Assembly (NCBI GenBank): GCA_963805945.1
Contig: CAWDVP010000001.1
Coordinates: forward strand, 224,001 to 288,000
DNA length: 64,000 nucleotides
Direction: 5' to 3'
DNA from: Vulcanimicrobiota bacterium
GTDB lineage: Bacteria > Vulcanimicrobiota > Vulcanimicrobiia > Eremiobacterales > Eremiobacteraceae
Below, piece after piece: positions 4,457 through 19,892 of the stretch (positions are counted from its first letter, which is position 1; each line of letters starts with the position of its first letter). The notes under the pieces are model-generated. The model worked only from the letters and a program-made list of their open reading frames with translations, ran no database searches and was not told the DNA's origin. The position numbers and the translations under genes were made by a program.

Positions 4457-7022
4457 GTGGCTCGCACGAGCCCGGGCGACGCCGCCGGCGACGGTTGGCG
4501 CGCGGTAGAGTTGGGCGCGTCGGCTCGCATGTCGACCGCTGACGTCTTCACCGCGTTGGACGGTTCGCCGCAGGGGCTCTCGTCGGCGGAGGCGGCGCGA
4601 CGGCTGGTCGTCGCCGGTCCCAATTCGCTGCACCGGTACCACGCGCACGCAGGCGCCGTCCTCACCCGTCAGCTGAACAACCCGCTACTGCTGTTGCTCG
4701 CTGCCACCGCGATCGCAGCCGTCCTCCTCGGCGAGAAGACCGACGCGCTCATCATCTTGGCCATCGTCGGACTGAGCATCGGGCTCGGTTTTATCAACGA
4801 GTATCGCTCGGCGCGCGCGATCGAAGCGCTCCAAGCACAGGTCACGCATTCGGCCGTCGCCCTGCGCGACGGTCGCGTACAAGGGCTTGACGTCGCGACG
4901 CTGGTGCCCGGCGACGTCATCCTCTTGGATGTCGGTGACATCGTGCCCGCCGACGCCCGCCTGCTCGACGTCGCCGGCCTCGAGTGCGACGAGAGCGCGC
5001 TCACCGGCGAGTCGCAGCCCGTGGAGAAATCGGCGCTGCCGATGTCGACGGCGGCCGGCCCGCTCGAGCTGACGTCGTGCGCGTTCATGGGCACCGTCGT
5101 GCGCGGCGGCAGCGGCCGCGCCGTGGTCGTCCGCACGGGGACGCGCAGCGAGTTCGGCGCTATCGCCCAGCGGTTGAGCACCCGCCTCCCGGAGACGGTC
5201 TTCCAACAGGGGCTGCGCAAGTTCTCGACGATGCTGGTGCAGATCACGCTCGTGCTTTGCATCATCATCTTCATCCTCAACCTCTGGCTGCTGCACCGCC
5301 CGCTCTTCGAGTCGCTGCTGTTCGCCCTTGCCATCGCGGTCGGGCTCACGCCCCAGCTGTTGCCTGCCATCGTCACGATCGGGCTCGCGCGCGGCGCGAG
5401 CATGATGGCCCGCAAGTCGGTGATCGTCAAGCGCCTCGTCAGTATCGAGGATTTCGGCAACATCGAGGTGCTTTTCACGGACAAGACGGGGACGCTGACG
5501 GAGGGACGCATCACCTTCAGGGGCGCGATCGACGAACATGGCTCGCCCTCGGACGAGATCCTCTCGCTGGGGCTGTTGTGCAACGCGGCTTCGCCACAAG
5601 ATGGGGGCGCCATCGGCGGCACGCCGCTCGATCGCGCGCTGTGGGAAGCGCCGCCGCCCGCCGGACTGACGGGCAGCACACGCCTCGGTGCGGCGCCATT
5701 CGACTACACGCGGCGCCGCATGTCGGTGCTCGTACGAGGATGCGCTCGGACATCGCACCATCGTCACCAAGGGCGCCCCCGAGGCGGTCTTCGCCTGCTG
5801 TGCGCAGGTGCCCGCATCGCTGCGCGCATCGCTTGACGCGCAGTTCGCGGCCGGTTCGCGCGTCGTCGCCGTGGCGACTCGCGATGCGGGCGCGGCGACG
5901 TCGGTGAGCGCGGCGGACGAACATGACCTCACGCCGGCGGGCCTGCTGGTCTTCGAAGACGCGCCGAAAGCCGACGCACGCGAATCGCTCGACCGCTTGC
6001 GCGCGCTGGGCGTGGAGGTCAAGCTGCTGACCGGTGACAACGAGCGCGTGGCGCAGAAGGTGTGGGCGGATCTCGGCCTGGGCGAGGCGCGCTGCCTCAC
6101 CGGCGTCGAGATCGAAGCGATGGCGGATGCGCAGCTGCGGCGTGAGTTGCCCGGCGTGTCGATCCTCGCGCGCGTCTCGCCCGAACAGAAGTCGCGGATC
6201 ATCCGCGCGCAGCGGGCGACGGGGACGGACGTCGGATTCCTCGGCGACGGCGTCAACGACGCCATCGCGCTGCACGACGCGGACGTCGGCATCTCGGTCG
6301 ATTCGGCGGTCGACGTGGCCAAAGATGCGGCGGACATCGTGCTGCTCCGCAAGGATCTCGGCACGCTCGCCGACGGCGTCGTCGAGGGTCGCCGCATCTT
6401 CGCCAACACGATCAAGTACGTGCTCATGGGCACCTCGTCCAACTTCGGCAACATGGTGAGCACCGCCGGCGCGTCGCTCATCATCCCCTTCTTGCCGATG
6501 CTGCCGTCGCAGATACTGCTCAACAACCTGCTCTACGATGCGAGCGAGATGACCATACCGACCGACAACGTCGACCCGGAGATGCTGCGCCGGCCGGCGC
6601 ATTGGGACATCGGCATGATCCGCAGGTTCATGGCCGTGTTCGGACCGATCAGCTCGCTCTTCGATTTCGCGATCTTCGGCGCCCTGATCTTCATCTTCCA
6701 TGCGGGAGAGACGATGTTCCAGACCGGCTTCTTCGTCGAAAGTCTCGTCACGCAGACGCTCGTCATCTTCGCCATCCGCACGCGGCGCGTGCCCTTCTTC
6801 CGCAGCCGGCCGAGCGCGGCGCTGACGATCACGACGCTCGCGGCGGTCGCGATCGGCATATCGCTGCCGTTCTCGCCGCTCGCGGGCCTCTTCGGCTTCG
6901 CGCCGCTGCCGCAATTGCTCTTCGGAACGATCATGGCCGCGATCGTCACGGTCTACTTCACGCTCGTCGAGACGGCCAAGACCTTCTTCTACCGGCGGGT
7001 CATCGCCGAGGCGGGCCGATGA
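4457..7022 (+). CDS. mgtA: Mg2+-transporting-type P-type ATPase; apparent +1 frameshift near 5733-5735
   Basis: TGES, DKTGTLT, KGAPE, TGDN, GDGVND and GTSSNFGNM motifs are split over ORFs 4457..5836 and 5688..7022. Confidence 0.85.
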
Positions 7023-9740
7023 GCGCCGGCGGCGAGCGCGCCTGGCCGCACCGGCTCGACGCGTTGTTCTCACCGCGGAGCGTCGCGGTCATCGGGGCGA
7101 GCGAGCGGCCGCACAGCGTCGGCCGCATCGTCTTCTCGAATCTCACCGACGGGTCGTTCGGCGGCGCCGCGTTTCCGGTGACGCCGGCGCACGCGTCGGT
7201 GCTCGGGCATGCGGCGTTCGCGGACATCGGCGCAGTGCCTCGCCCAGTCGACCTCGCGATCATCGCGACGCCTGCGGCGTCCGTCCCCGGCATCGTCGCG
7301 CAGTGCGCCGCCGCCGGCGTCAACGCCGCCATCATCCTGTCGGCGGGGTTCCGTGAGACGGGCGCTGCGGGCGTCGAGCTGGAGCGGCGCATCGCGCTCA
7401 GCGCCGCCAGCACGGGCCTGCGCATCCTCGGCCCCAATTGTCTCGGGCTGATGTCGCCGGGCAGCGGTTTGAACGCGAGTTTCGCCGGCGAATCGGCTCT
7501 GCCCGGGTCTGTGGGATTCGTGAGCCAGAGCGGCGCGCTGTGCACCGCAGTGTTGGATTGGAGCCTGGGCGAGCGCGTCGGCTTCAGCGCGTTCGTGTCG
7601 GTCGGCTCGATGCTCGACATCGGCTGGGCCGATCTCATCTACTATCTCGGTGACGACCCGGCGTGCAAGAGCATCGTGTTGTACATGGAGTCGGTCGGCA
7701 ATGCCCGCACGTTCTTGTCGGCGGCGCGCGAGGTGGCGCAGTCCAAGCCGATCGTGGTCATGAAGGCCGGCCGGACGGCGGTCGCCGCGCATGCCGCCGC
7801 CTCGCACACCGGCGCGCTTGCGGGCAGCGACGACGTCATCGATGCGGCGCTGCGACGCTGTGGCGTGCTGCGCGTCGACGCGCTCGAAGACCTCTTCCAG
7901 ATGGCAGACGTGCTTTCGAAGCAGCCCCGGCCTCGAGGCAGACGACTCGCCATCGTGACCAATGCCGGCGGCGCCGGCGTGATCGCCGCGGACGCGCTCA
8001 TCCGGGGCGGCGGCGAGACGGCGACGCTGTCGGCCGCCAGCATGGCAGCGCTCGACGTCTTCTTGCCCCCGAGCTGGAGCAAGGGCGACCCGATCGATAT
8101 GTTGGGCGACGCCGATCCCGCGCGCTACGAGCGCACGCTTGAGATCGTGGCGGCGGACGAGGGCGTGGACGGGCTGCTCGTCGCGCTCGCACCGCAAGGC
8201 GTCGCCGATGCAGCCGACGTCGCCGCACGGGTGGCCCAAGCACGGGCGCTTGGATCGAAAGCCCGTGCTCGCGGCCTGGATCGGCGGACCAGGGGTGAGC
8301 GCAGGCGCCGCCGTGCTGCGCGACGCCGGCGTGCCGGTGTTCACCTATCCGGACACCGCGGCCCGCGTCTTCAACGACATGTGGCGCAGCGAGGCGAATC
8401 TGCGCGCGCTGTTCGAGACTCCCGCGCCTACCACGGAACTTGACGAGGCCTCGCGGCGCGCGGTCGCGGCCGAAGTCATCGCCGGCGCGCAGTCACGCGG
8501 GCGTACGGTGCTCACCGAAGCCGAAGCGAAACGCATGCTCGCCGCATATGGCATCCCGACGGTGCCGACGGCGAGCGCCTCGAACATCGCGGACGCCATC
8601 CTCGCCGCGAAGCGGATGGGCTATCCCGTGGTCGTGAAGCTCAACTCCGAGACGATCACGCACAAGAGCGAGGTCGGCGGCGTGTGCTTGGACGTCGCGG
8701 ATGCGAGCGGGGTCGAGAGCGCGTATCGCCAGATCGAAGCGTCGGTGCTGGCGGCGACGGGGCCGGGAAACTTCGCGGGCGTGAGCGTCGAGCCGATGAT
8801 CCGTCGGCGTGGGATCGAGCTGATCCTCGGCAGCGCCGTCGACGCGCAGTTCGGACCGACGCTCTTGTTCGGCACGGGCGGGACGCTCGCTGAGGTGCTC
8901 GCCGACAGCGCGGTCGAGCTGCCGCCCTTGACGACGACGCTCGCGCGGCAGCTCATGGAGCGGACGAAGATATACCGCGCCCTCAAAGGCATCCGTGGCG
9001 AGCCGCCGGCCGACCTCGCGGCGCTCGAAACCACGCTCGTCCGCTTCGGCACATTGGTCATGGAACAGCCGCGCATCCGCGAGATCGAGATGAACCCGCT
9101 GCTCGCCGGGAGCGATGGCGTGCTCGCGCTGGATGCCCGCGCGATCCTCCATCCAGCGGAATCGCGCGACGAGGACCTGCCGCGCCCGGCCATCCGCGCC
9201 TATCCGGCGCAGTATGCTGGTGAGTGCGTGTTGCGCGACGGCGCGCGCCTCCACATCCGGCCGATCCGTCCCGATGACGAGCCCATGATGCGCGAGTTCC
9301 ACGGCGCGCTGTCGAAGGAGAGCGTCTACCATCGGTACGCGGGCATCGTCTCGCTCGATCAGCGCATCGTCCACGAGAACCTCTCGCGCGTGTGCTTCAT
9401 CGACTACGCGCGGCAGATCGCACTCGTGGCGATCGCGGGCTCCACGATCGTCGCGGTCGCGCGGCTCATCCGTGCGCACGATGCGGATGAAGCGGAGTTC
9501 GCGCTCGTCGTGACGGACGCGTACCAGCGCCGCGGCCTCGGCATGGAACTCATGCGACGCCTATTGGCCATCGCCCGCACCGAACGCATCGGCGCCGTCG
9601 TCGGCTACATCTTGAATGAGAATCTCGGCATGCAGCGCATCTGCTCGACGCTCGGCTTCACGCTCGAGCCGGGTGACGCGAAGGATTTCGTCCGCGCGGT
9701 GTATCGGGTGACGCCCGACGTCCCGACCGGGCCGATCTAA
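7019..9740 (+). CDS. Acetate-CoA ligase (ADP-forming) family / GNAT fusion (Pat/YfiQ-like); apparent +1 frameshift near 8236
   Basis: CoA-binding domain ([21 protein letters not shown]), ATP-grasp domain ([15 protein letters not shown]) and C-terminal GNAT ([25 protein letters not shown]). The ATG overlaps the ATPase stop. Confidence 0.88.
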
Positions 9741-9756
9741 AGATCGGCCCCTACAT
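9729..9756 (-). repeat. GTAG-type REP palindrome
   Basis: Minus strand reads ATGTAGGGGCCGATCTTTAGATCGGCCC, identical to the copy at 54588. Lies between convergent genes. Confidence 0.85.
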
Positions 9757-10196
9757 CAAGATTTGTTCGAGCGTACTGCCAGGACCGGGATGGGCGACGC
9801 GCGCAGCACGCCTTCCGCGATGCTGCCGAGGAACAGGCGTGCGAGACCGTGGCGGCCGTGACTGCCGATGACGATGAGAGCGCAGCCGCGGGCGGCGGCG
9901 GCGTCAAGGATGGCGCGCACCGGCTCTTCCTCTTGCAGCACAAGCTCGTGTTGCACGCCCGCGCTCTTCGCGCGGGCACCCGCCTCGGCGAGGATCGCCT
10001 GGCCTTCGGCACGCAGTTGGTCGAACATCGGATTTCGGCCGCCGCCGTGGGCCACGATCGGCGCGTCCAAAACCGACAGGTCGAGCGCGTAGCAGAAGAT
10101 GAGCGAGCTGTGCCCCTTGGCCAGCGCTATCGCGAGGTCCGTCGCCGCGTGCGCGCAGTGCGATCCGTCGACGGCGACGAGGATGCGTTCGAACAC
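9756..10196 (-). CDS. Universal stress protein
   Basis: MFERILVAVDGS...LIVIGSHGRHGLARLFLGSIAEGVLRASPIPVL. Confidence 0.92.
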   Translation of the reverse strand: MFERILVAVDGSHCAHAATDLAIALAKGHSSLIFCYALDLSVLDAPIVAHGGGRNPMFDQLRAEGQAILAEAGARAKSAGVQHELVLQEEEPVRAILDAAAARGCALIVIGSHGRHGLARLFLGSIAEGVLRASPIPVLAVRSNKS

Positions 10197-10218: not shown

Positions 10219-10251
10219 ATGATACCGCCGGCTCAGGAAGAGGCCGTGAAT
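10219..10251 (-). promoter_or_regulatory. Putative promoter with shared island motif
   Basis: Minus strand ATTCACG-N20-TATCAT upstream of the USP start at 10196. Confidence 0.45.
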
Positions 10252-10888: not shown

Positions 10889-11356
10889 TCACGAGCGGGC
10901 GCTCTCTTCCATGACGTCTTTGATGCGGCGAAGCAGTTCGCGCGCGGTCTCCTGTGCGATGCGGTGGCCCAACGCCATATCGAACACCTGCCCCGCTGGA
11001 CCGAACGGCGGCTCGTAGTCGCCAGTCAGCGAGAGGAAGCATCGGCCGCCCGGCTCGGCGTGCAGCGTGAGCGAACCCTTGAATGTCGGAAAGGCGCCGC
11101 CGTGCTTCGGTGACCAGTGCAGCGACAATTGCTGCTGCTGGCGATCGAGCTCGTCGCCGGCCGGCGCATACGTGGCGACCACCTCCCGGCCGATGCTCAC
11201 GCCGCCCGGCACGCCGAGCACGTCTCCCGGCAGCTTCAACTCCAGCGTCCCCGGCGTTGCGTTGGGAACGGCGAGCTGGTCCATATACCATTCCAAGTAC
11301 GACGGCACTTGGGCCGCGGGCCAGCGCACGAGCAGGCCTTCATGGAGATGTGCCAT
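10889..11356 (-). CDS. Hypothetical protein (possible helix-grip/SRPBCC-like fold)
   Basis: GAGG precedes the ATG at 11356; contains FPTFKGSLTL...LTGDYEPPFGPAGQVFD. Fold is a guess. Confidence 0.6.
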   Translation of the reverse strand: MAHLHEGLLVRWPAAQVPSYLEWYMDQLAVPNATPGTLELKLPGDVLGVPGGVSIGREVVATYAPAGDELDRQQQQLSLHWSPKHGGAFPTFKGSLTLHAEPGGRCFLSLTGDYEPPFGPAGQVFDMALGHRIAQETARELLRRIKDVMEESARS

Positions 11357-11362
11357 GCCTCT

Positions 11363-11406
11363 ATTCCACCGCACCGGTCTGCCGGGCATATGAACTTCCG
11401 GTGAAG
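11363..11406 (-). promoter_or_regulatory. Putative promoter with shared island motif
   Basis: Plus strand TATGAAC-ttcc-GGTGAAG at 11389-11406, 20 nt from a weak -10 (TGGAAT on the minus strand). Confidence 0.4.
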
Positions 11407-14077: not shown

Positions 14078-15244
14078 CTAGTGCAGCGCTCCGAAGGTCG
14101 TGTCGAATTGCAGGTTCATCCGCCACGCCGGCATCGTGCCGCTTTGCATCCCCACCTCGCCGTTGAGCGTCCACGCGGTGGCCGCACGCGACGAGACGTG
14201 GCGCGAGACGACGATGCCGAGATCGACGTTGCCGTATTGGGTGATCGTGCCCAACCCGTCGTTGGTCATCTCTTTGCGAACGCCGAGCATGACCACGTTC
14301 TTGTAGAGCGGTTCGGTGAGGTCGATCGAGTAGCCGTAGCTGTGCGCCGGGCCGAACGCGGGACCGGCGTTCGAGTCGTTGTTGTTCTGCACGAGCGCGA
14401 ACAATCCGGGGAGGCCGTGCTGCGGGTCGATCTCGATATATGGTCCGACCGCGCTGTAATTGTCAAAGGAGCCGTCCGAGAGCGGATACGAGCCCGTCGC
14501 TCCGTACACGCCTGCCTCGATCGGCTTATCCGCGCGTGCGTATGCGAGGCGGTACTGGAACGTCCGGTCGGACTCCCAGTCGAAGGCGGTGTTCAGATTG
14601 TCGCCGGTGGTCACATAGGCGGCTTCGGCGACGTAGCCCGGACGGATGTATTGCATCTTCGCGCCCCAGCGATTGGACGACAGGCCGTACGTGTGCTCGC
14701 CGACGGTCATCGACGGCGGTACGAATCCGGACAGCTCGAACCACTGGCTGAACGGAGAGGGAGCCGGCAGTTCCAGCTTACCGACAGTCAAGTGCCCGTC
14801 ACGGTGGAGCAGGTTGTTGTAGGTCAACCACAGCGTGTCGGTGCCGCCCGGCTGATCGTTCTGCTGGATCCATTGGTGCAGATGCCAGGTGATGTCGTTG
14901 CCTATGTAGCCCGCGCCGTGCAGCGACAGATTGCCGGTCTGCATAACGTACGGCTCGGCGGCGTCCTGCGTGTCGTAGAAGATCGCTTCGGCGCCCCACA
15001 GCGGGAAGGCCTTATGGATGGTGCTCGCGTCCAGCGACGAGTAGTCGCTGCGCTGCACGTATCGTCCGTACGCGTTGAGCGCCGGCACGGAGGAGTGGCA
15101 GACCTCGCAATTGATGCCGTACGCTTGGGCGAAGACCGGCATGGCCTGGGTCGGGCGCAGGCTCTCGATCACGAACGCGACCGCGAGCACGCCCCCGACG
15201 ATCAGGATGGTAGCCCGGATGGTGCCTCGGGCGGGCGCGTTCAC
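14078..15244 (-). CDS. Cyc2-like monoheme cytochrome c / porin fusion
   Basis: Signal peptide, then AMPVFAQAYGINCEVCHSSVPALNAYGRY (a single CxxCH in a Cyc2-type context), then about 330 aa rich in alternating aromatic beta-strand-like segments. GTGA overlap with the cupredoxin stop. Confidence 0.72.
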   Translation of the reverse strand: MNAPARGTIRATILIVGGVLAVAFVIESLRPTQAMPVFAQAYGINCEVCHSSVPALNAYGRYVQRSDYSSLDASTIHKAFPLWGAEAIFYDTQDAAEPYVMQTGNLSLHGAGYIGNDITWHLHQWIQQNDQPGGTDTLWLTYNNLLHRDGHLTVGKLELPAPSPFSQWFELSGFVPPSMTVGEHTYGLSSNRWGAKMQYIRPGYVAEAAYVTTGDNLNTAFDWESDRTFQYRLAYARADKPIEAGVYGATGSYPLSDGSFDNYSAVGPYIEIDPQHGLPGLFALVQNNNDSNAGPAFGPAHSYGYSIDLTEPLYKNVVMLGVRKEMTNDGLGTITQYGNVDLGIVVSRHVSSRAATAWTLNGEVGMQSGTMPAWRMNLQFDTTFGALH

Positions 15245-15597
15245 GGCTTGACCTCGACCGTCAGCACCATGTCCCCATGTCCAGGGCCGCACGGTTGGCT
15301 GCAATGGATCTTATAGGTCCCGGCCGTCTTCGGCGTCACCATGACGTCGACGAACTTGCCCGGCGCGATCGTCGTGTCGGGGATGCCGAGTTCCGTGGAC
15401 GAGATGCCGTGCACGCCGCCCGATGAGGTGAGATGCAGCGTGGTGGTCTCTCCGACGTGCATCTCGACGGTCGCCGGGGTGAACTTCCAGTTCGAGGCCA
15501 CGACGTCGACCGTGGGATGGGCGAAGGCCGGCAGTGCCAGCATGAGAACCGCGCCGCCAGCAAGGCCGGCAAGCCGATGTGCGAGTGAAAATGTCAT
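15241..15597 (-). CDS. Exported cupredoxin with CuA-type motif
   Basis: Signal peptide ending AFA; WKFTP, VHG and HCSQPCGPGHGDM (H..CxxxCxxxHxxM); AAGGAG RBS. Confidence 0.88.
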   Translation of the reverse strand: MTFSLAHRLAGLAGGAVLMLALPAFAHPTVDVVASNWKFTPATVEMHVGETTTLHLTSSGGVHGISSTELGIPDTTIAPGKFVDVMVTPKTAGTYKIHCSQPCGPGHGDMVLTVEVKP

Positions 15598-15619
15598 GGT
15601 TATCTCTCCTTCTGACATC

Positions 15620-15673
15620 AGTCTACCAGAGCGGGTCGCGCAGGACGTGAAGCCGTTTGGAAGGTGTGTGAAG
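15620..15673 (-). promoter_or_regulatory. Putative promoter with triple shared island motif
   Basis: Plus strand CGTGAAG-ccgt-TTGGAAG-gtg-TGTGAAG at 15646-15673, 20 nt from TAGACT on the minus strand. Confidence 0.5.
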
Positions 15674-15770
15674 GGTGCGACTAGGGACGCACGGGTGCTG
15701 GCGGCGCCTGCGAGAATCGTCCCGCTGAGTTAGACGCATCGGCCCAGGAAGCGACCGCTCTATCGGCCGG

Positions 15771-17402
15771 TCACCACGTGCGCATGCCGGGCGCGCCGTA
15801 CGGATGCACGTGCACCAGGTCGTACATCGGCCCGACGTAGGCGAGGAAGGCCAGCACGACCGCCGCGAGCGCCCACATGCCGATCTTGTCGAACGCGGCC
15901 GGCGTGGGCATGGCCTCGTCCTCGGGCTGCGCGAACGTCACGGCCTCGTCCGCGGGCTCATCGTGCAGGCGCGTGCCGATCGCCACGGTCGCGAACATGA
16001 GGATGCTGATGAAGAGGATCGCGCCGCCGATCGCCGCCGCGATCATCTCGGGCATCCACAGGCTCGCCGCGGCCGAACCGAAATACGTCACGTCGTCGGT
16101 GCGCCGCGGCGAGCCGAGCAGGCCGGCCCAATGCATGGCGGTGGACATCACGAGCATCCCGATGAACCAGGCATAGGTCTGTGCCAGCGCCAGTTTCGGC
16201 GCCCACAACTTGCGCCCGGTGAGCGCCGGCACCAGCCAATAGGCGATGCCGACGAACGACAGCGCCACCGGGCCGCCCACGGTCACATGGAAGTGCCCGA
16301 CGATCCACATGGTGTTGTGCACCAGCGTGTCCATGCTGTACGAGGCGTTCACCACGCCGCCGAAACCGCCGAAGATGAACAGGATCATGCCGAGCGCAGG
16401 CCCCGCGAACGCCGGGTTGCTCCACGGCAGCGTGGCGACGGCGCCGATGAAGCCGGGGCGGCCCTTGCGCCGCGCGGCCATCTCGAACGAGGCGAAGATC
16501 GCGAACGCGGTCATGATCGACGGGATGACGACGCCGTAGGTCGTCATGGTGTGGACCCATTTCCATGCCGCCGAGATGCCCGGCTCCATGAACTGGTGAT
16601 GCAGACCGACCGGCGTCGAGAGGATCAACAGCAGCAGAAACGCCAGACGCGTGAGCGCGTCGCTGAACACCTTGCCGCCGTATAGCGTCGGCACGATGTT
16701 GTACCAGATCAGATACGCGCCCATGATCCAGAAGTAGACGAGCGGATGGCCGAAGTACCAGAACAGCATGCGCGTCATCATCACGTCGACGGTCGGCGTC
16801 CAGCCGAGCGACCACGGGATGAGGAAGAACAGCATCTCGATCGCCACGCCGATCGTGGCGATGAACCACATGACGAACGTGCAGGTGGCGCCGTGCACCA
16901 TGAGCGGCAGCGCCTCGCCGGGGCGCGTCCGCCGGAAGTACACGACGTTCTCGAGGATCTCGTAGAGCACGAACCAGGTCGCGACGACGAGCACGGTCGC
17001 GCCGATGTAGAACGACGGATGCGCCTTGAGCGGCGCGTAGAACGTGTAGAGCACCGACGCGCTGCCGCTGAGGATGGCGACGGTGGCGGTGAGCGTGCCC
17101 GCGAGCATCAGCGCGAAGCCCGACCAGGAAAGCGCGAGCGAGCGCTCGCGCGGTATGGTGCGATACACGCCGAACAGCGACAGCCCGCAGATGAAGAACG
17201 TGGTGAACACGATCGCCATGAGCACGCCGTGCGCGGTGAGCATGCGATAGTAGTCGAACCAGTGCGGTGCGGCGAACCAGCGCGCGCGAGAGAACGCTTG
17301 CAGCAGGCCGAAGATCGCGCCGACGACGATCGCGCCGGTGGCCGTGTACACGTAGCCGAGGATGAGACGGTTCTCGCGCTGGACCTGCGCCGACGCCGCC
17401 AT
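15771..17402 (-). CDS. cbaA: b(o/a)3-type (B-family) heme-copper oxidase subunit I
   Basis: LTAHG, YTFYAPL, FWYFGHPLVYFW, GLHHQF and HNTMWIVGHFH. Confidence 0.93.
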   Translation of the reverse strand: MAASAQVQRENRLILGYVYTATGAIVVGAIFGLLQAFSRARWFAAPHWFDYYRMLTAHGVLMAIVFTTFFICGLSLFGVYRTIPRERSLALSWSGFALMLAGTLTATVAILSGSASVLYTFYAPLKAHPSFYIGATVLVVATWFVLYEILENVVYFRRTRPGEALPLMVHGATCTFVMWFIATIGVAIEMLFFLIPWSLGWTPTVDVMMTRMLFWYFGHPLVYFWIMGAYLIWYNIVPTLYGGKVFSDALTRLAFLLLLILSTPVGLHHQFMEPGISAAWKWVHTMTTYGVVIPSIMTAFAIFASFEMAARRKGRPGFIGAVATLPWSNPAFAGPALGMILFIFGGFGGVVNASYSMDTLVHNTMWIVGHFHVTVGGPVALSFVGIAYWLVPALTGRKLWAPKLALAQTYAWFIGMLVMSTAMHWAGLLGSPRRTDDVTYFGSAAASLWMPEMIAAAIGGAILFISILMFATVAIGTRLHDEPADEAVTFAQPEDEAMPTPAAFDKIGMWALAAVVLAFLAYVGPMYDLVHVHPYGAPGMRTW

Positions 17403-17404
17403 CG

Positions 17405-17872
17405 CTATTTCACCTCGATCGCGCCGTACATGAAATGATGACCGGCGCCGCAATACTCGTTGCACAGCAGCAGATGCTGACCGGGCGTGCGGAAGACATG
17501 GGTCGCCTTGCTGACCCAGCCGGGCACCACGAGCATGTTCACGTCGGTGTCGGTGATGAAGAAGCCATGTACGACATCGGGACTCGTGCTGTAGAACGTC
17601 ACCTTCGCGCCGACGGGCACGGTGATGCGCGGCGGCGTGAACGAGAACACGCGGGCCACGACATAGGCCTCATACTCGTTCGGGCCGGTCTGATGCAGGC
17701 CCGGCGCGTCGAACGGCGCGGTCTGCGCCACCTTGGTGGGGTCGATGGTCTTCTCGTAGCTCGGTGGGATGATGCCGTCCATGAGCGCCGCGCTGCCGAT
17801 GATCGCCAAGAAGATGACGAGCGCCACGACACCAAAACCGAGCCACAGCTTCTCGAGCCGATGGACGTGCAC
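17405..17872 (-). CDS. cbaB: ba3-type oxidase subunit II (CuA)
   Basis: MHVHRLEKLW, one transmembrane helix, DVVHGF and CNEYCGAGHHFM. Confidence 0.93.
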   Translation of the reverse strand: MHVHRLEKLWLGFGVVALVIFLAIIGSAALMDGIIPPSYEKTIDPTKVAQTAPFDAPGLHQTGPNEYEAYVVARVFSFTPPRITVPVGAKVTFYSTSPDVVHGFFITDTDVNMLVVPGWVSKATHVFRTPGQHLLLCNEYCGAGHHFMYGAIEVK

Positions 17873-17873
17873 G

Positions 17874-17993
17874 CTACCACCTGCTCGCCATGAGCGCGTA
17901 CATCAGAAGCCAGCCGACGACGATGAAGACGCCCAAGCCCGTGAGAAAGCGCGCGGTGCCCGGCAGCGGTTGGTCGTCGCGGTCCTGGCTCAT
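17874..17993 (-). CDS. ba3-type oxidase small subunit IIa (CbaD/CoxIIa-like), 39 aa
   Basis: MSQDRDDQPLPGTARFLTGLGVFIVVGWLLMYALMASRW, a single transmembrane helix directly upstream of subunit II. Too short for the ORF track. Confidence 0.78.
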   Translation of the reverse strand: MSQDRDDQPLPGTARFLTGLGVFIVVGWLLMYALMASRW

Positions 17994-18002
17994 TTGGATG
18001 CC

Positions 18003-18047
18003 ATGATACCAGCCGTCCGACGGACGGCGTATGAAGATTCTGCGAAG
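18003..18047 (-). promoter_or_regulatory. Putative promoter with shared island motif
   Basis: Minus strand CTTCGCA-N4-CTTCATA-N21-TATCAT upstream of the oxidase operon. Confidence 0.5.
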
Positions 18048-19892
18048 TTAACCGACGACGCTGCCCGCGGCTTCGCGCAGGCGGGCGCCCTCGATCGCGA
18101 CGCTCGCGAGCTGCGCGAAGACCTCGATCGTGCGCACCGTCTCCTCGCTCGGCACGAGGTGGTCGCGCGGCTCGTCGGGCGACAGCACGCCCATGAGCAC
18201 GCCGTTCGAATCGAAGAACGGGAAGAGCAGCAGGTCGTCCTCGTGCCATTCACCCTGCGCGCCGCGCGGCAGCGTGGCGAGCTGCGGGTTGCGCACGACG
18301 CCGCCCTCGATGTGCAGTTCCATCGGCGCGTAGTAATAGGTGTCGCGCACGCGCGCGCGTTCGGTCATCGACGCCTGCAGCTCGGCGTCGGGCACCTCTT
18401 GCCCGACGACCGCCGCCGCGAAACCGATCGCCGCGCGTCGCACGAACACGTTGCGCGTGGGGTCGCGCACGACGATGGTGCCCGCGGTGAAGTTGAACTG
18501 GCTGACGGCGACCTCGAGGATGCGCTTGAGGACGCGGTCGAGGTCCCGCTCCTTGAAGATGGACGCGGTGAGGTCGAGGATGCTCGCCAGCCTGGCCGCC
18601 TGTTTGCGCCGCCCTTCGGCGGCGGTCTCGGCGTCGCGGTAGAGGCGCTGCATCTCGCGATTGGTCTCGGTCAGTTCTTCAGCGCGACGCTGTTCGGTGG
18701 TGAAGAGATGCACGTTCTCGATCGCCGCCGCCGCCAGGTGGGCGAAGAGCGCGACGTTGTCCAGCGTGGCTTTGGACGGCACCTTGTCGTCGGCAGGCGC
18801 ATCCGGCTCGAGCAGCCCGATGACGTCGCCCGATGACGAGTGCAGGCGGAAGAGCAGCGTATCCGCTTCGTTCCAATCGTCGGGCGAGTTGCGCGCCTCG
18901 CCGAGACGGCTGCGATCGAAGGTCAGCGCCGGATCCGTATACCACGTCTGCTCTTCGACGGGCGCGTAATACACGCTCGGGCGGACCTCGAAGCGTTTGT
19001 CGAGCTTCAGGTCGACCTGGGCGAACGCGAACTCGCCGTCGCGCAGGGCCGCCTCCACATCGGGCGCGTAGCCGCGCACCGCGCTGGCGCGATAGACCTC
19101 GCGATCCCTGTCCGCCACCAGAATCGAGCCGGCCCGGAAGCCGAATGCTTTGATCGTGGCGTCCAGGATGCGGTCGAGCAGCATCGCCAGCTCGCGTTCA
19201 CGCATGAGCGTGACGCTGAGCTCGACGACCTTGCGCAGGGTCGCGGCTTGCGCCTTCGTCTCGGCGAGCATGATCTGTTCGCTGCGCGCCGCGTTCGAGA
19301 GCGCTGCGCTGCGAAGCGAGAGCGCCGCATTGCGCTCGTCGATCTCACGGACGAGCAGTCCGATGTTGAGGACATTGAGCCACAGCACCGCCGCCTGGAA
19401 GAACAGGCTGACCGACGTCGATGATGGCGTAGGACGCAGCCAATGCGACAAGACGATGACGGCGGTAGCGCCAAAACCCGCGGCGAGCGCTCCCGGATAA
19501 CGCTCACGCGCAGCCGCGATCGCGGTGAAGATGATGAGGCCGACCCACGTTCCCGGGAATACCGGCTCGTAGGCCACCACGACGGCCGAGAGGGCGATGA
19601 AGTCCGCGACGAGGACGAGCCGCGCCATCTGGCGGATCGCCGTGAAGCTCTGCGCGCGGTTGTTGAACCACGCGGCCGCGAGGCTCGCGACCAGCCAGAA
19701 CACGATCGCCGCGGGCCTGACCCACGCCGGGCTCGAGGCCGGCAACCAGTAGGCGATCGCCGCGGTCATGAAGACCGTGATGAGGCGCACGCGAAGAATG
19801 CCCGCTTCGATGCGGCGCTGCTCTTCGAGAGTCGTGCCTAAGATGTCGTCTATCATGGCGTTGGGTGCGGCGCCGGCTGTGCGGGCCGCCAT
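18048..19892 (-). CDS. Membrane protein with tandem GAF-like domains and no output domain
   Basis: About 5-6 N-terminal transmembrane helices, coiled coils, and two internally similar GAF-like repeats (W.E.D.LLF....S.G...G.L.PD.P.D..VPS). Alternative start at 19856. Confidence 0.75.
   Translation of the reverse strand: MAARTAGAAPNAMIDDILGTTLEEQRRIEAGILRVRLITVFMTAAIAYWLPASSPAWVRPAAIVFWLVASLAAAWFNNRAQSFTAIRQMARLVLVADFIALSAVVVAYEPVFPGTWVGLIIFTAIAAARERYPGALAAGFGATAVIVLSHWLRPTPSSTSVSLFFQAAVLWLNVLNIGLLVREIDERNAALSLRSAALSNAARSEQIMLAETKAQAATLRKVVELSVTLMRERELAMLLDRILDATIKAFGFRAGSILVADRDREVYRASAVRGYAPDVEAALRDGEFAFAQVDLKLDKRFEVRPSVYYAPVEEQTWYTDPALTFDRSRLGEARNSPDDWNEADTLLFRLHSSSGDVIGLLEPDAPADDKVPSKATLDNVALFAHLAAAAIENVHLFTTEQRRAEELTETNREMQRLYRDAETAAEGRRKQAARLASILDLTASIFKERDLDRVLKRILEVAVSQFNFTAGTIVVRDPTRNVFVRRAAIGFAAAVVGQEVPDAELQASMTERARVRDTYYYAPMELHIEGGVVRNPQLATLPRGAQGEWHEDDLLLFPFFDSNGVLMGVLSPDEPRDHLVPSEETVRTIEVFAQLASVAIEGARLREAAGSVVG

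What the first reader, a model, noticed from the sequence alone, without database searches (positions are those of the whole stretch)
14078..17993. Cyc2-like cytochrome-porin, CuA cupredoxin and ba3 oxidase: a compact candidate Fe(II)-to-O2 chain
Seen: 14078-15244 has a signal peptide, then PVFAQAYGINCEVCHSSVPALNAYGR and a beta-rich remainder. It is translationally coupled (GTGA) to an exported cupredoxin with CxxxCxxxHxxM, and both lie just downstream of the cbaD-B-A genes. Known: Cyc2 of iron oxidisers starts with PxFARQ..CxxCH...PxL..FGR fused to a porin, and in Acidithiobacillus it is encoded with a copper protein and a terminal oxidase. B-family oxidases are associated with low O2. Inferred: an outer-membrane electron uptake route using a soluble CuA carrier in place of rusticyanin or Cyc1. 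Distant Cyc2 homologues are not proven iron oxidases.
Basis: partly seen in the sequence, partly recalled or inferred. Interest (0 to 1): 0.8.

Follow-up and report, generated by a model that had tools for sequence, protein, structure and literature searches.

The report
Heme-porin with dedicated copper electron shuttle
A soil bacterium of the Eremiobacterota group carries, next to the genes of a low-oxygen-type respiratory oxidase, a heme-motif protein predicted to form an outer-membrane pore and a small protein with a two-copper motif that is fused to it in some relatives, likely a wire passing electrons across the cell surface, though whether iron feeds it is untested.

Summary
Observation confirmed. 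14078-15244 is a signal peptide + single CXXCH + predicted 16-stranded OprP-like barrel (pLDDT 89.6; Z 24.1), homologous along its length to strict-motif Cyc2-type proteins (hhalign 99.3%) but failing the published Cyc2 motif (0 of 120 family members). It belongs to a family found in 146 of 226 genomes of this class. The conserved unit is barrel + CuA-motif cupredoxin: directly upstream in 54 of 80 loci, co-occurring regardless of ba3 (80/101 and 34/45 versus 5/20 and 3/60), and fused to the barrel's C-terminus in 14 sequence clusters. A triheme cytochrome c flanks 34 of 80 loci. The ba3 link is real but lineage-limited (14 of 14 in this family within 1.2 kb; 22 of 75 elsewhere within 7 kb). 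The two transcription units share an 11-bp direct-repeat box (cbaD ranks first of 2243 genes) and sit in a stress/fermentation island; most carriers lack RuBisCO. Best reading: a low-oxygen surface electron conduit, barrel heme to CuA to ba3, in mostly non-autotrophs. Fe(II) as donor is unproven; outward Fe(III) reduction is the main rival. Cyc2-like hits in Eremiobacterota are already in print; the CuA partner and fusion were not found there.

The parts
14078..15244 (-). Monoheme cytochrome-porin (Cyc2-like), 388 aa, GTG start
15143..15244 (-). Predicted Sec signal peptide of the porin (residues 1-34), cleavage likely just before the conserved M-P-x-F-A motif
   Evidence: sequence; helix 4-27 in model; A34 in 116 of 120; inferred
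15095..15109 (-). Heme c attachment motif C46-x-x-C49-H50; PxL follows at 54-56
   Evidence: invariant in 120 of 120
14096..15001 (-). Predicted 16-stranded beta-barrel (residues 82-383) with invariant H121, D136, H184, D261, D273, D290
15241..15597 (-). Exported single-domain cupredoxin with CuA ligand set (H63, C99, C103, H107, M110); overlaps porin start (GTGA)
15647..15672 (-). Three TTC half-sites at 10-11 bp spacing (direct-repeat box), 21 nt before a -10-like hexamer at 15620-15625
   Evidence: function inferred
15771..17402 (-). cbaA, B-family heme-copper O2 reductase subunit I (H219/Y223, H269-H270 region, H371/H373 kept)
17405..17872 (-). cbaB, subunit II with membrane anchor and CuA
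17874..17993 (-). cbaD-like 39-aa single-helix subunit, conserved ahead of cbaB in relatives
   Evidence: name by position (recalled)
18031..18046 (-). Direct-repeat box ahead of cbaD, best score of 2243 genes in the genome; -10-like hexamer at 18003-18008
10235..10250 (-). Same box ahead of the Usp gene 9756-10196 (score 13.5)
11390..11405 (-). Same box ahead of the unknown 146-aa gene 10889-11329 (score 11.8)

Best explanation
The two genes encode a predicted outer-membrane heme-porin and an exported CuA-motif cupredoxin that likely form a surface electron conduit, which in this lineage would pass electrons from an outside reductant to the neighbouring ba3 oxidase and O2 when oxygen is likely scarce. 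Shown: gene content, motifs, conserved pairing, natural barrel-CuA fusions, a shared upstream box. Predicted: 16-stranded barrel; with both termini on the periplasmic side (established for even-stranded porins) the heme domain and the fused CuA domain share a compartment. Inferred: heme c and CuA are loaded; conserved His/Asp residues of the barrel bind a dissolved metal donor (Fe(II) or organically bound Fe(II) most likely); the cupredoxin shuttles to CbaB; an OmpR-family regulator at the island's edge switches on both units. The gain would be supplementary energy for a heterotroph, not autotrophic growth. Elsewhere in the class a triheme cytochrome c, or a fused cytochrome c, likely plays the carrier role and other oxidases may be the sink.
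For: Fold: pLDDT 89.6, 16 long strands; best match OprP, Z 24.1, rmsd 2.7 over 275 residues, the template named for Cyc2 in PMC8406198. Homology to 34 strict-motif proteins over 332 columns, E 1.9e-20. Partner: cupredoxin directly upstream in 54 of 80 loci, triheme-family cytochrome within 1.2 kb in 34, either in 75; cupredoxin found in 80/101 and 34/45 porin genomes with and without ba3 but 5/20 and 3/60 without the porin; 14 fusion clusters whose CuA domain is 50-63% identical to the window cupredoxin and 25-36% to CbaB, intact in DNA in L160 and L180. ba3: found in 101 of 146 porin genomes versus 20 of 80 others (kin not independent); within 1.2 kb in 14 of 14 genomes of this family, also in head-to-head order. 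Box: leave-one-out score >=10 in 62 of 81 upstream regions versus 32 of 2243 genes; cbaD ranks first. Maturation and envelope: ResB present, weak Omp85 hit, outer membrane seen in V. alpinum.
Against: Strict Cyc2 motif absent in 0 of 120 and the family branches apart from the strict-motif set (FastTree, long branches); none of those comparison proteins is characterised. 45 of 146 porin genomes have no ba3 found; outside this family only 22 of 75 have it within 7 kb. The box precedes cbaD in only 1 of 14 unlinked loci but in 3 of 5 genomes lacking the main porin family, so it marks a regulon, not a dedicated pathway. The neighbours include phosphoketolase, acetate kinase and alcohol dehydrogenase, which fit electron disposal as well as uptake. 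RuBisCO not found in G000 (82% complete) or 0 of 6 of its genus. Seven loci sit in a housekeeping context. Low-oxygen control rests on gene company only.
Confidence: 0.5

Rival explanations
1. Same wire, opposite direction: under low O2 the bc complex reduces the cupredoxin, which splits electrons between ba3 and the heme-porin, and the porin reduces soluble Fe(III) or humic quinones outside as an overflow sink in acidic soil.
For: Stress/fermentation genes in 41 of 80 loci versus 2 of 172 tiles of G000; Rieske and cytochrome b-c genes about 28 kb from the porin; mostly no RuBisCO; PMC8790237 describes micro-aerobic Fe(III) reduction by acidophilic heterotrophs, a higher Fe couple at low pH and Cyc2 proposed as terminal reductase.
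Against: Tight co-location and co-occurrence with an O2 reductase; the tested Cyc2 relatives oxidise Fe(II); CuA centres are high-potential acceptors (about +240 mV for Thermus CuA, recalled), poor reductants of Fe(III) oxides near neutral pH; V. alpinum grows at pH 4.5-8.
Confidence: 0.22
2. Specifically a dissolved-Fe(II) oxidase chain supporting lithotrophic growth, equivalent to the Acidithiobacillus rus system.
For: Architecture parallels cyc2-copper protein-oxidase; Eremiobacterota with cyc2 calls are reported from mine drainage and were up to 89% of some tailings samples; invariant H121/D136 recall the H119/D137/D138 site of A. ferrooxidans Cyc2 (similar numbering only, not aligned).
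Against: RuBisCO in 31 of 232 class genomes, and 17 of 30 of those carry the porin against 146 of 226 overall; named carriers include palsa, fen and Antarctic soil records; PMC8406198 warns that distant homologs are unverified.
Confidence: 0.1
3. A metal-acquisition unit: the heme-porin reduces and admits Cu or Fe, and the cupredoxin is a copper chaperone or store for assembling the ba3 CuA/CuB sites.
For: Porin fold of solute channels; conserved His/Asp in the barrel; SCO1/SenC beside cbaA in 3 of 80 loci; tandem CuA domains in 2 of 14 fusions.
Against: The cupredoxin follows the porin, not ba3 (5 of 20 ba3 genomes without porin; 34 of 45 porin genomes without ba3); it alternates with c-type cytochromes as neighbour and as fusion partner, which are electron carriers; full redox-type CuA ligand set in 63 of 63.
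Confidence: 0.1
4. No joint pathway with ba3: both units merely landed in the same stress island under one regulator, and the porin-cupredoxin pair feeds another sink (caa3) or a sensor.
For: Separate promoter-like boxes; 45 of 146 porin genomes lack ba3; a caa3-type oxidase is present in G000; box not porin-specific.
Against: Adjacency kept in 14 of 14 family genomes through an inversion; ba3 gains or loses linkage about 9 times on the porin tree; G000 has few soluble cytochromes that could serve ba3.
Confidence: 0.08

Closest known systems
Cyc2 fused cytochrome-porin family (A. ferrooxidans Cyc2, M. ferrooxydans Cyc2PV-1, G. bivora Cyc2TAG1_1, Leptospirillum Cyt572)
   Same: Signal peptide, one N-terminal CXXCH, PxL four residues later, 16-stranded OprP/OprO-like barrel, over 365 aa.
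   Different: Motif reads A-M-P-x-F-A-Q-A-Y, not AXPXFAR[Q/K][T/Y] (0 of 120); shorter (about 385 aa); separate branch from strict-motif proteins; no activity data; carriers mostly lack RuBisCO.
Acidithiobacillus rus operon (cyc2-cyc1-cup-coxBACD-rus)
   Same: Heme-porin, periplasmic copper protein and heme-copper oxidase encoded together.
   Different: Carrier has a binuclear CuA ligand set rather than the mononuclear sites of rusticyanin/AcoP; no c4 cytochrome in the locus; oxidase is B-family, not aa3; two likely transcription units; carrier can be fused to the barrel.
Thermus thermophilus ba3 oxidase (CbaDBA) and its CuA domain
   Same: Subunit I E 2.5e-120 with metal ligands and cross-linked Tyr position kept; cupredoxin's best solved relatives are Thermus CuA domains (E 4e-9).
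   Different: Thermus uses cytochrome c552 as donor (recalled); here a free CuA-motif protein without membrane anchor is the candidate donor.
Cyc2-like genes reported in Eremiobacterota MAGs (PMC8357290, PMC13594681)
   Same: Same phylum, same marker-level inference of Fe(II) oxidation.
   Different: The passages read give no gene context, carrier, fusion or regulation; I could not tell whether their hits are this family or one of the paralogous heme-porin families.

Membership tests
Cyc2 (Keffer et al. 2021) | Signal peptide and a single N-terminal CXXCH | tested here: met
   (signal peptide by eye and model, not SignalP)
Cyc2 (Keffer et al. 2021) | 16-stranded porin resembling OprP/OprO | tested here: met
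   16 strands; OprP top hit Z 24.1, rmsd 2.7, 275 aligned; OprO/OprP among Foldseek hits
Cyc2 (Keffer et al. 2021) | AXPXFAR[Q/K][T/Y] motif ahead of CXXCH | tested here: not met
   Window reads AMPVFAQAY; strict pattern in 0 of 120, looser spacing pattern in 110 of 120. Filed as Cyc2-like, not as a member
Cyc2 (Keffer et al. 2021) | PXL four residues after CXXCH; length at least 365 aa | tested here: met
   P54 and L56 in 120 of 120; 388 aa
Cyc2 (Keffer et al. 2021) | FeGenie Cyc2 HMM hit and placement in cluster 1, 2 or 3 | not testable with these tools
   No such HMM or reference set on hand; no Pfam or NCBIfam hit. Proxy only: hhalign to 34 uncharacterised strict-motif proteins, 99.3%
Cyc2 (Keffer et al. 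2021) | Heme reduced by Fe(II) | not testable with these tools
   needs protein
rus operon | cyc2-cyc1-cup-coxBACD-rus gene set with aa3 oxidase and rusticyanin | tested here: not met
   locus holds no second cytochrome and no rusticyanin; oxidase is B-family
B-family heme-copper O2 reductase (ba3) | Six His ligands, active-site Tyr, K-channel-analogue residues, subunit II CuA, small subunit IIa | tested here: met
   alignment to Thermus ba3, positions; channel residue roles recalled; the Thermus T315 position is Ala
CuA cupredoxin | His ... Cys-x3-Cys-x3-His-x2-Met ligand set | tested here: met
CuA cupredoxin | Binuclear mixed-valence copper centre (purple spectrum, EPR) | not testable with these tools
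   needs protein
OmpR/PhoB-type regulon box | Tandem 10-11 bp direct repeats in place of the -35 element, bound by the response regulator | tested here: inconclusive
   repeat and position met; a regulator at least 50% identical to the island's lies within 6 kb in 18 of 80 loci; binding untested

The most novel reading that the evidence does not exclude
Most Eremiobacteria, abundant acid-soil heterotrophs and trace-gas users, carry a cryptic extracellular electron transfer module in which a divergent Cyc2-type heme-porin is wired to a free or covalently fused CuA domain (heme-porin-CuA, even heme-porin-CuA-CuA, in one chain) and is switched on with a high-affinity oxidase when soil turns hypoxic, making them unrecognised iron or humic redox cyclers that strict Cyc2 motif screens miss.
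Probability: 0.35. Interest if true: 0.8.

Novelty: new variant of a known kind. Interest (0 to 1): 0.6.

Why it matters
Cyc2 is used as a marker of iron oxidation, yet what distant homologs do in organisms not known to oxidise iron is open (PMC8406198), and the native redox partner is unidentified even for a characterised cluster 1 protein (PMC13692758). Here nature names the partner by fusion: a single gene giving heme-porin plus CuA can be expressed and tested for donor and direction in one preparation. If it works, a free CuA protein would be a respiratory shuttle of a type my searches did not find described, and a widespread soil class would gain a surface redox activity.

Tried and rejected
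Pfam and NCBIfam gave no hit for the porin; the family profile gave no significant PDB sequence hit. The complex prediction of porin + heme + cupredoxin returned 'no answer' (score 0.00, controls not folded). A fold of a natural fusion gave two well-predicted domains, a disordered linker and pTM 0.69, which says nothing on docking. No model coordinates were available, so the second heme ligand and the pore-facing residues were not identified. The sigma-70 scan found no promoter-like site; a palindrome count upstream gave only GC-rich noise before the sampler found the direct repeat. Extending the box search to about 1 kb ahead of 19 unlinked or porin-less ba3 loci gave 6 hits at >=10 against 9 on the opposite strand, so no signal. 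One locus (L063) was a slicing artefact and is dropped (11 of 17 valid linked loci score >=10; two more were too short). The independent-pairs test of cupredoxin/triheme exchange had too few pairs (median p 1), so 'interchangeable' is descriptive only; 13 of 80 loci have both. The mixture-model tree did not finish; only a FastTree is reported. Three look-ups of earlier scan findings returned nothing. Rejected: chance ORF or frameshift origin of the fusion (14 clusters, two intact genome loci); NO reductase identity of cbaA (active-site Tyr kept); cupredoxin as ba3's dedicated donor or chaperone (tracks the porin). The Ji et al. 2021 Eremiobacterota paper was not held, and the Cyc2 tree in the PMC8357290 supplement was not legible enough to place their hit.
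Full report
Observation. CUP's stop and CYC's start overlap as GTGA. The window is G000:C1:224001-288000 in a 2.3 Mb, 82% complete genome; named homologs are Eremiobacterota/Vulcanimicrobiota.

The porin. CYC has no Pfam or NCBIfam hit but 427 homologs among 4305 candidates. I aligned it with 119 of the 120 listed (A1; one long outlier, P0053, left out). CXXCH, P54 and L56 are invariant. AlphaFold2 gives mean pLDDT 89.6, pTM 0.83, a short helical heme region and 16 long strands. Foldseek returns 16-stranded porins; the wide VIA search ranks OprP first (Z 24.1, rmsd 2.7, 275 aligned). Keffer et al. (PMC8406198; passages and section 13 read) define Cyc2 by this same fold plus an AXPXFAR[Q/K][T/Y] motif. 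The strict motif is met by 0 of 120; a looser spacing pattern by 110 of 120. To test homology I collected proteins with the strict motif (34 of 121 candidates); hhalign pairs them with A1 over 332 columns, heme region and barrel, probability 99.3, E 1.9e-20. They are uncharacterised, and three were first found with A1, so this is a proxy for the FeGenie test, not a replacement. On a FastTree with long-branch warnings the family stands apart from them. Conserved candidate metal ligands in the barrel are H121, D136, H184, D261, D273, D290, an acidic residue at 170 and at 325 (120 of 120 each). A. ferrooxidans Cyc2 has a modelled H119/D137/D138 site (bioRxiv 2021.03.22.436458, passages), reported as tested by mutagenesis in a review (PMC13741234, passages); the similar numbering is a lead only. 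Verdict: Cyc2-like in build, not filed as a member.

Range. A profile search of 301 phylum genomes hit 230, nearly all in this class (f1 21/21, f2 198/207, f3 3/3; 7 weak hits in the other 69 genomes; tally includes unpublished genomes). Splitting at E 1e-50 and leaving out six unpublished genomes, 146 of 226 class genomes carry the main family; weaker hits are paralogous heme-porins.

The partner. CUP is an exported single cupredoxin domain whose best solved relatives are Thermus CuA domains, with H63 and C99-x3-C103-x3-H107-x2-M110 aligned to the CuA ligands. I fetched 6 kb either side of 80 of the 150 listed matches (chosen for contig length and spread, not at random). CUP is directly upstream in 54 of 80, a cytochrome of a triheme c family lies within 1.2 kb in 34, either in 75, both in 13; 63 of 63 CUP hits keep the CuA motif. 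Genome-wide, CUP follows CYC and not ba3: 80 of 101 genomes with CYC and ba3, 34 of 45 with CYC only, 5 of 20 with ba3 only, 3 of 60 with neither. Fourteen 90% clusters among the best 120 hits are single chains of heme motif, barrel, linker and a CuA domain, two with tandem CuA domains; the fused domain is 50-63% identical to CUP and 25-36% to CbaB. The fusion is intact in genome DNA in L160 and L180 (2 of 137 distinct barrels scanned), and barrel-cytochrome c fusions in L052 and L089 (more). This is the strongest evidence that a CuA protein is the barrel's functional partner.

The oxidase. CbaA aligns to Thermus ba3 at E 2.5e-120 with the metal ligands, the active-site Tyr (Y223) and most K-channel-analogue residues kept (residue roles recalled), so it is an O2 reductase rather than a derived NO reductase. 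It was found in 122 of 301 genomes: 101 of 146 with CYC and 20 of 80 without (kin are not independent, so the Fisher p overstates). Of 89 genomes with both positions listed, ba3 is within 1.2 kb in 14 of 14 of this family, including head-to-head arrangements (L039, L043), but within 7 kb in only 22 of 75 others (30 on different contigs). The three-part cluster is thus a family-level arrangement that recurs patchily.

Regulation. A Gibbs sampler on 81 upstream regions found TTC-n-CA-n4-CTTC-n-C, an 11-bp direct repeat (12.6 bits against 7.6-7.9 for shuffles). Leave-one-out scores reach 10 in 62 of 81, against 32 of 2243 G000 genes and 67 of 475 other genes in the loci. With the window excluded from training, cbaD's upstream region ranks first in the genome (17.1); Usp (13.5) and an unknown gene (11.8) in the same island also score; CUP's own site scores only 8.7, though it has three half-sites. 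At CUP and cbaD the box ends 21-22 nt before a TG-extended -10-like hexamer, where -35 would be, the layout known for OmpR/PhoB activators (recalled). An OmpR-family regulator and a sensor-less kinase flank the island, and a regulator at least 50% identical is within 6 kb in 18 of 80 loci. Against generality: the box precedes cbaD in 11 of 17 valid linked loci, 1 of 14 unlinked, and 3 of 5 genomes without main-family CYC. The island holds phosphoketolase, acetate kinase, Usp, a P-type ATPase, an acetate-CoA ligase-like gene, flavodoxin, alcohol dehydrogenase and Hsp20; such genes occur in 41 of 80 loci against 2 of 172 tiles of G000. Reading this as a low-oxygen regulon rests on resemblance to FixK/DosR-type gene sets (recalled); no expression data were found.

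Physiology. G000 has ResB, a weak Omp85 hit, a broken-looking caa3, Rieske and cytochrome b-c genes and few other c-type cytochromes; RuBisCO, NiFe hydrogenase and bd oxidase were not found (82% complete). RuBisCO was found in 31 of 232 class genomes, 0 of 6 in this genus, and 17 of 30 published RuBisCO genomes carry CYC against 146 of 226 overall (the two samples overlap only in part). The cultured relative V. alpinum has an outer membrane, grows at 1-20% O2 and pH 4.5-8, and iron is not among the donors or acceptors in the passages read (PMC9758169).

Mechanism. Most likely an outside reductant binds in the barrel, reduces the heme, the CuA protein carries the electron across the periplasm, and here ba3 passes it to O2 (0.5). 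Within that, dissolved or chelated Fe(II) is the best guess by analogy with all tested relatives, but full lithotrophy is unlikely (0.1 as a separate rival). Reverse flow to Fe(III) or humics as an overflow sink under low O2 is the main rival (0.22; PMC8790237 passages). Metal acquisition (0.1) and mere co-residence (0.08) fit worse.

Novelty. Cyc2-like genes in Eremiobacterota are in print as marker hits (PMC8357290 passages and supplement search; PMC13594681 passages). Searches for Eremiobacter + Cyc2, Cyc2 + CuA + fusion + porin (one paper, PMC10654088, whose passages show no such fusion), Eremiobacter/ba3/cupredoxin, FeGenie/Vulcanimicrobiota and soluble CuA carriers (listings only) found no account of a CuA partner, the fusion or the box; the library lacks most subscription papers, and figshare files of PMC8406198 could not be seen. 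New variant of a known kind; interest 0.6.

Noticed in passing
G000:C2:681193-681945 (L194:694-1446, minus): Second CUP-type CuA domain fused behind a copper-amine-oxidase N-terminal domain; similar 255-262 aa frames in G134, G087, G041, G071.
   Followed up: partly
G000:C2:587414-588856 (L193:915-2357, minus): 480-aa flavoprotein with a weak match to type III sulfide:quinone reductase (below cut-off) carries the second-best box in the genome (16.7); sulfide could be another low-O2 donor in the same regulon.
   Followed up: partly
window 10889-11329 (minus): 146-aa protein with no Pfam or NCBIfam hit; relatives in 24 of 80 porin loci, often several copies and often with the box.
   Followed up: partly
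L192:15312-16765 (just left of the window): OmpR-family regulator followed by a 245-aa histidine kinase with no sensor domain; a 66-aa fragment of the same kinase type stands alone in L050 and L060.
   Followed up: partly
window 4457-7022 and 6602-9740; G000:C6:182398-183695: The P-type ATPase, the acetate-CoA ligase-like gene and the caa3 subunit I are each split across frames, likely assembly errors rather than pseudogenes.
   Followed up: no
window 18048-19892 (minus): Membrane protein with two GAF domains and no output domain directly upstream of cbaD in all 5 same-genus loci; a possible sensor.
   Followed up: no
window 17994-18008: The -10-like hexamer lies 9 nt before the cbaD start, so the cbaDBA message would be almost leaderless.
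   Followed up: no
L057, L058, L061, L068, L071, L074, L076: The porin, with or without CUP, sits between two genes recognised from memory as mutS and mutL, a housekeeping context without the stress genes.
   Followed up: no
L101, L102: Two radical SAM/SPASM genes stand divergent from CUP-CYC; possibly heme biosynthesis (role recalled).
   Followed up: no
P0164, P0180, P0215, P0225, P0236, P0272, P0165, P0173, P0186: Several further heme-porin subfamilies with other motif variants, some fused to one or two C-terminal cytochromes c; many class genomes have 2-5 matches while G000 has one.
   Followed up: partly
L063, L066: Loci with two porin copies and two or three CUP copies in tandem beside ba3.
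   Followed up: no
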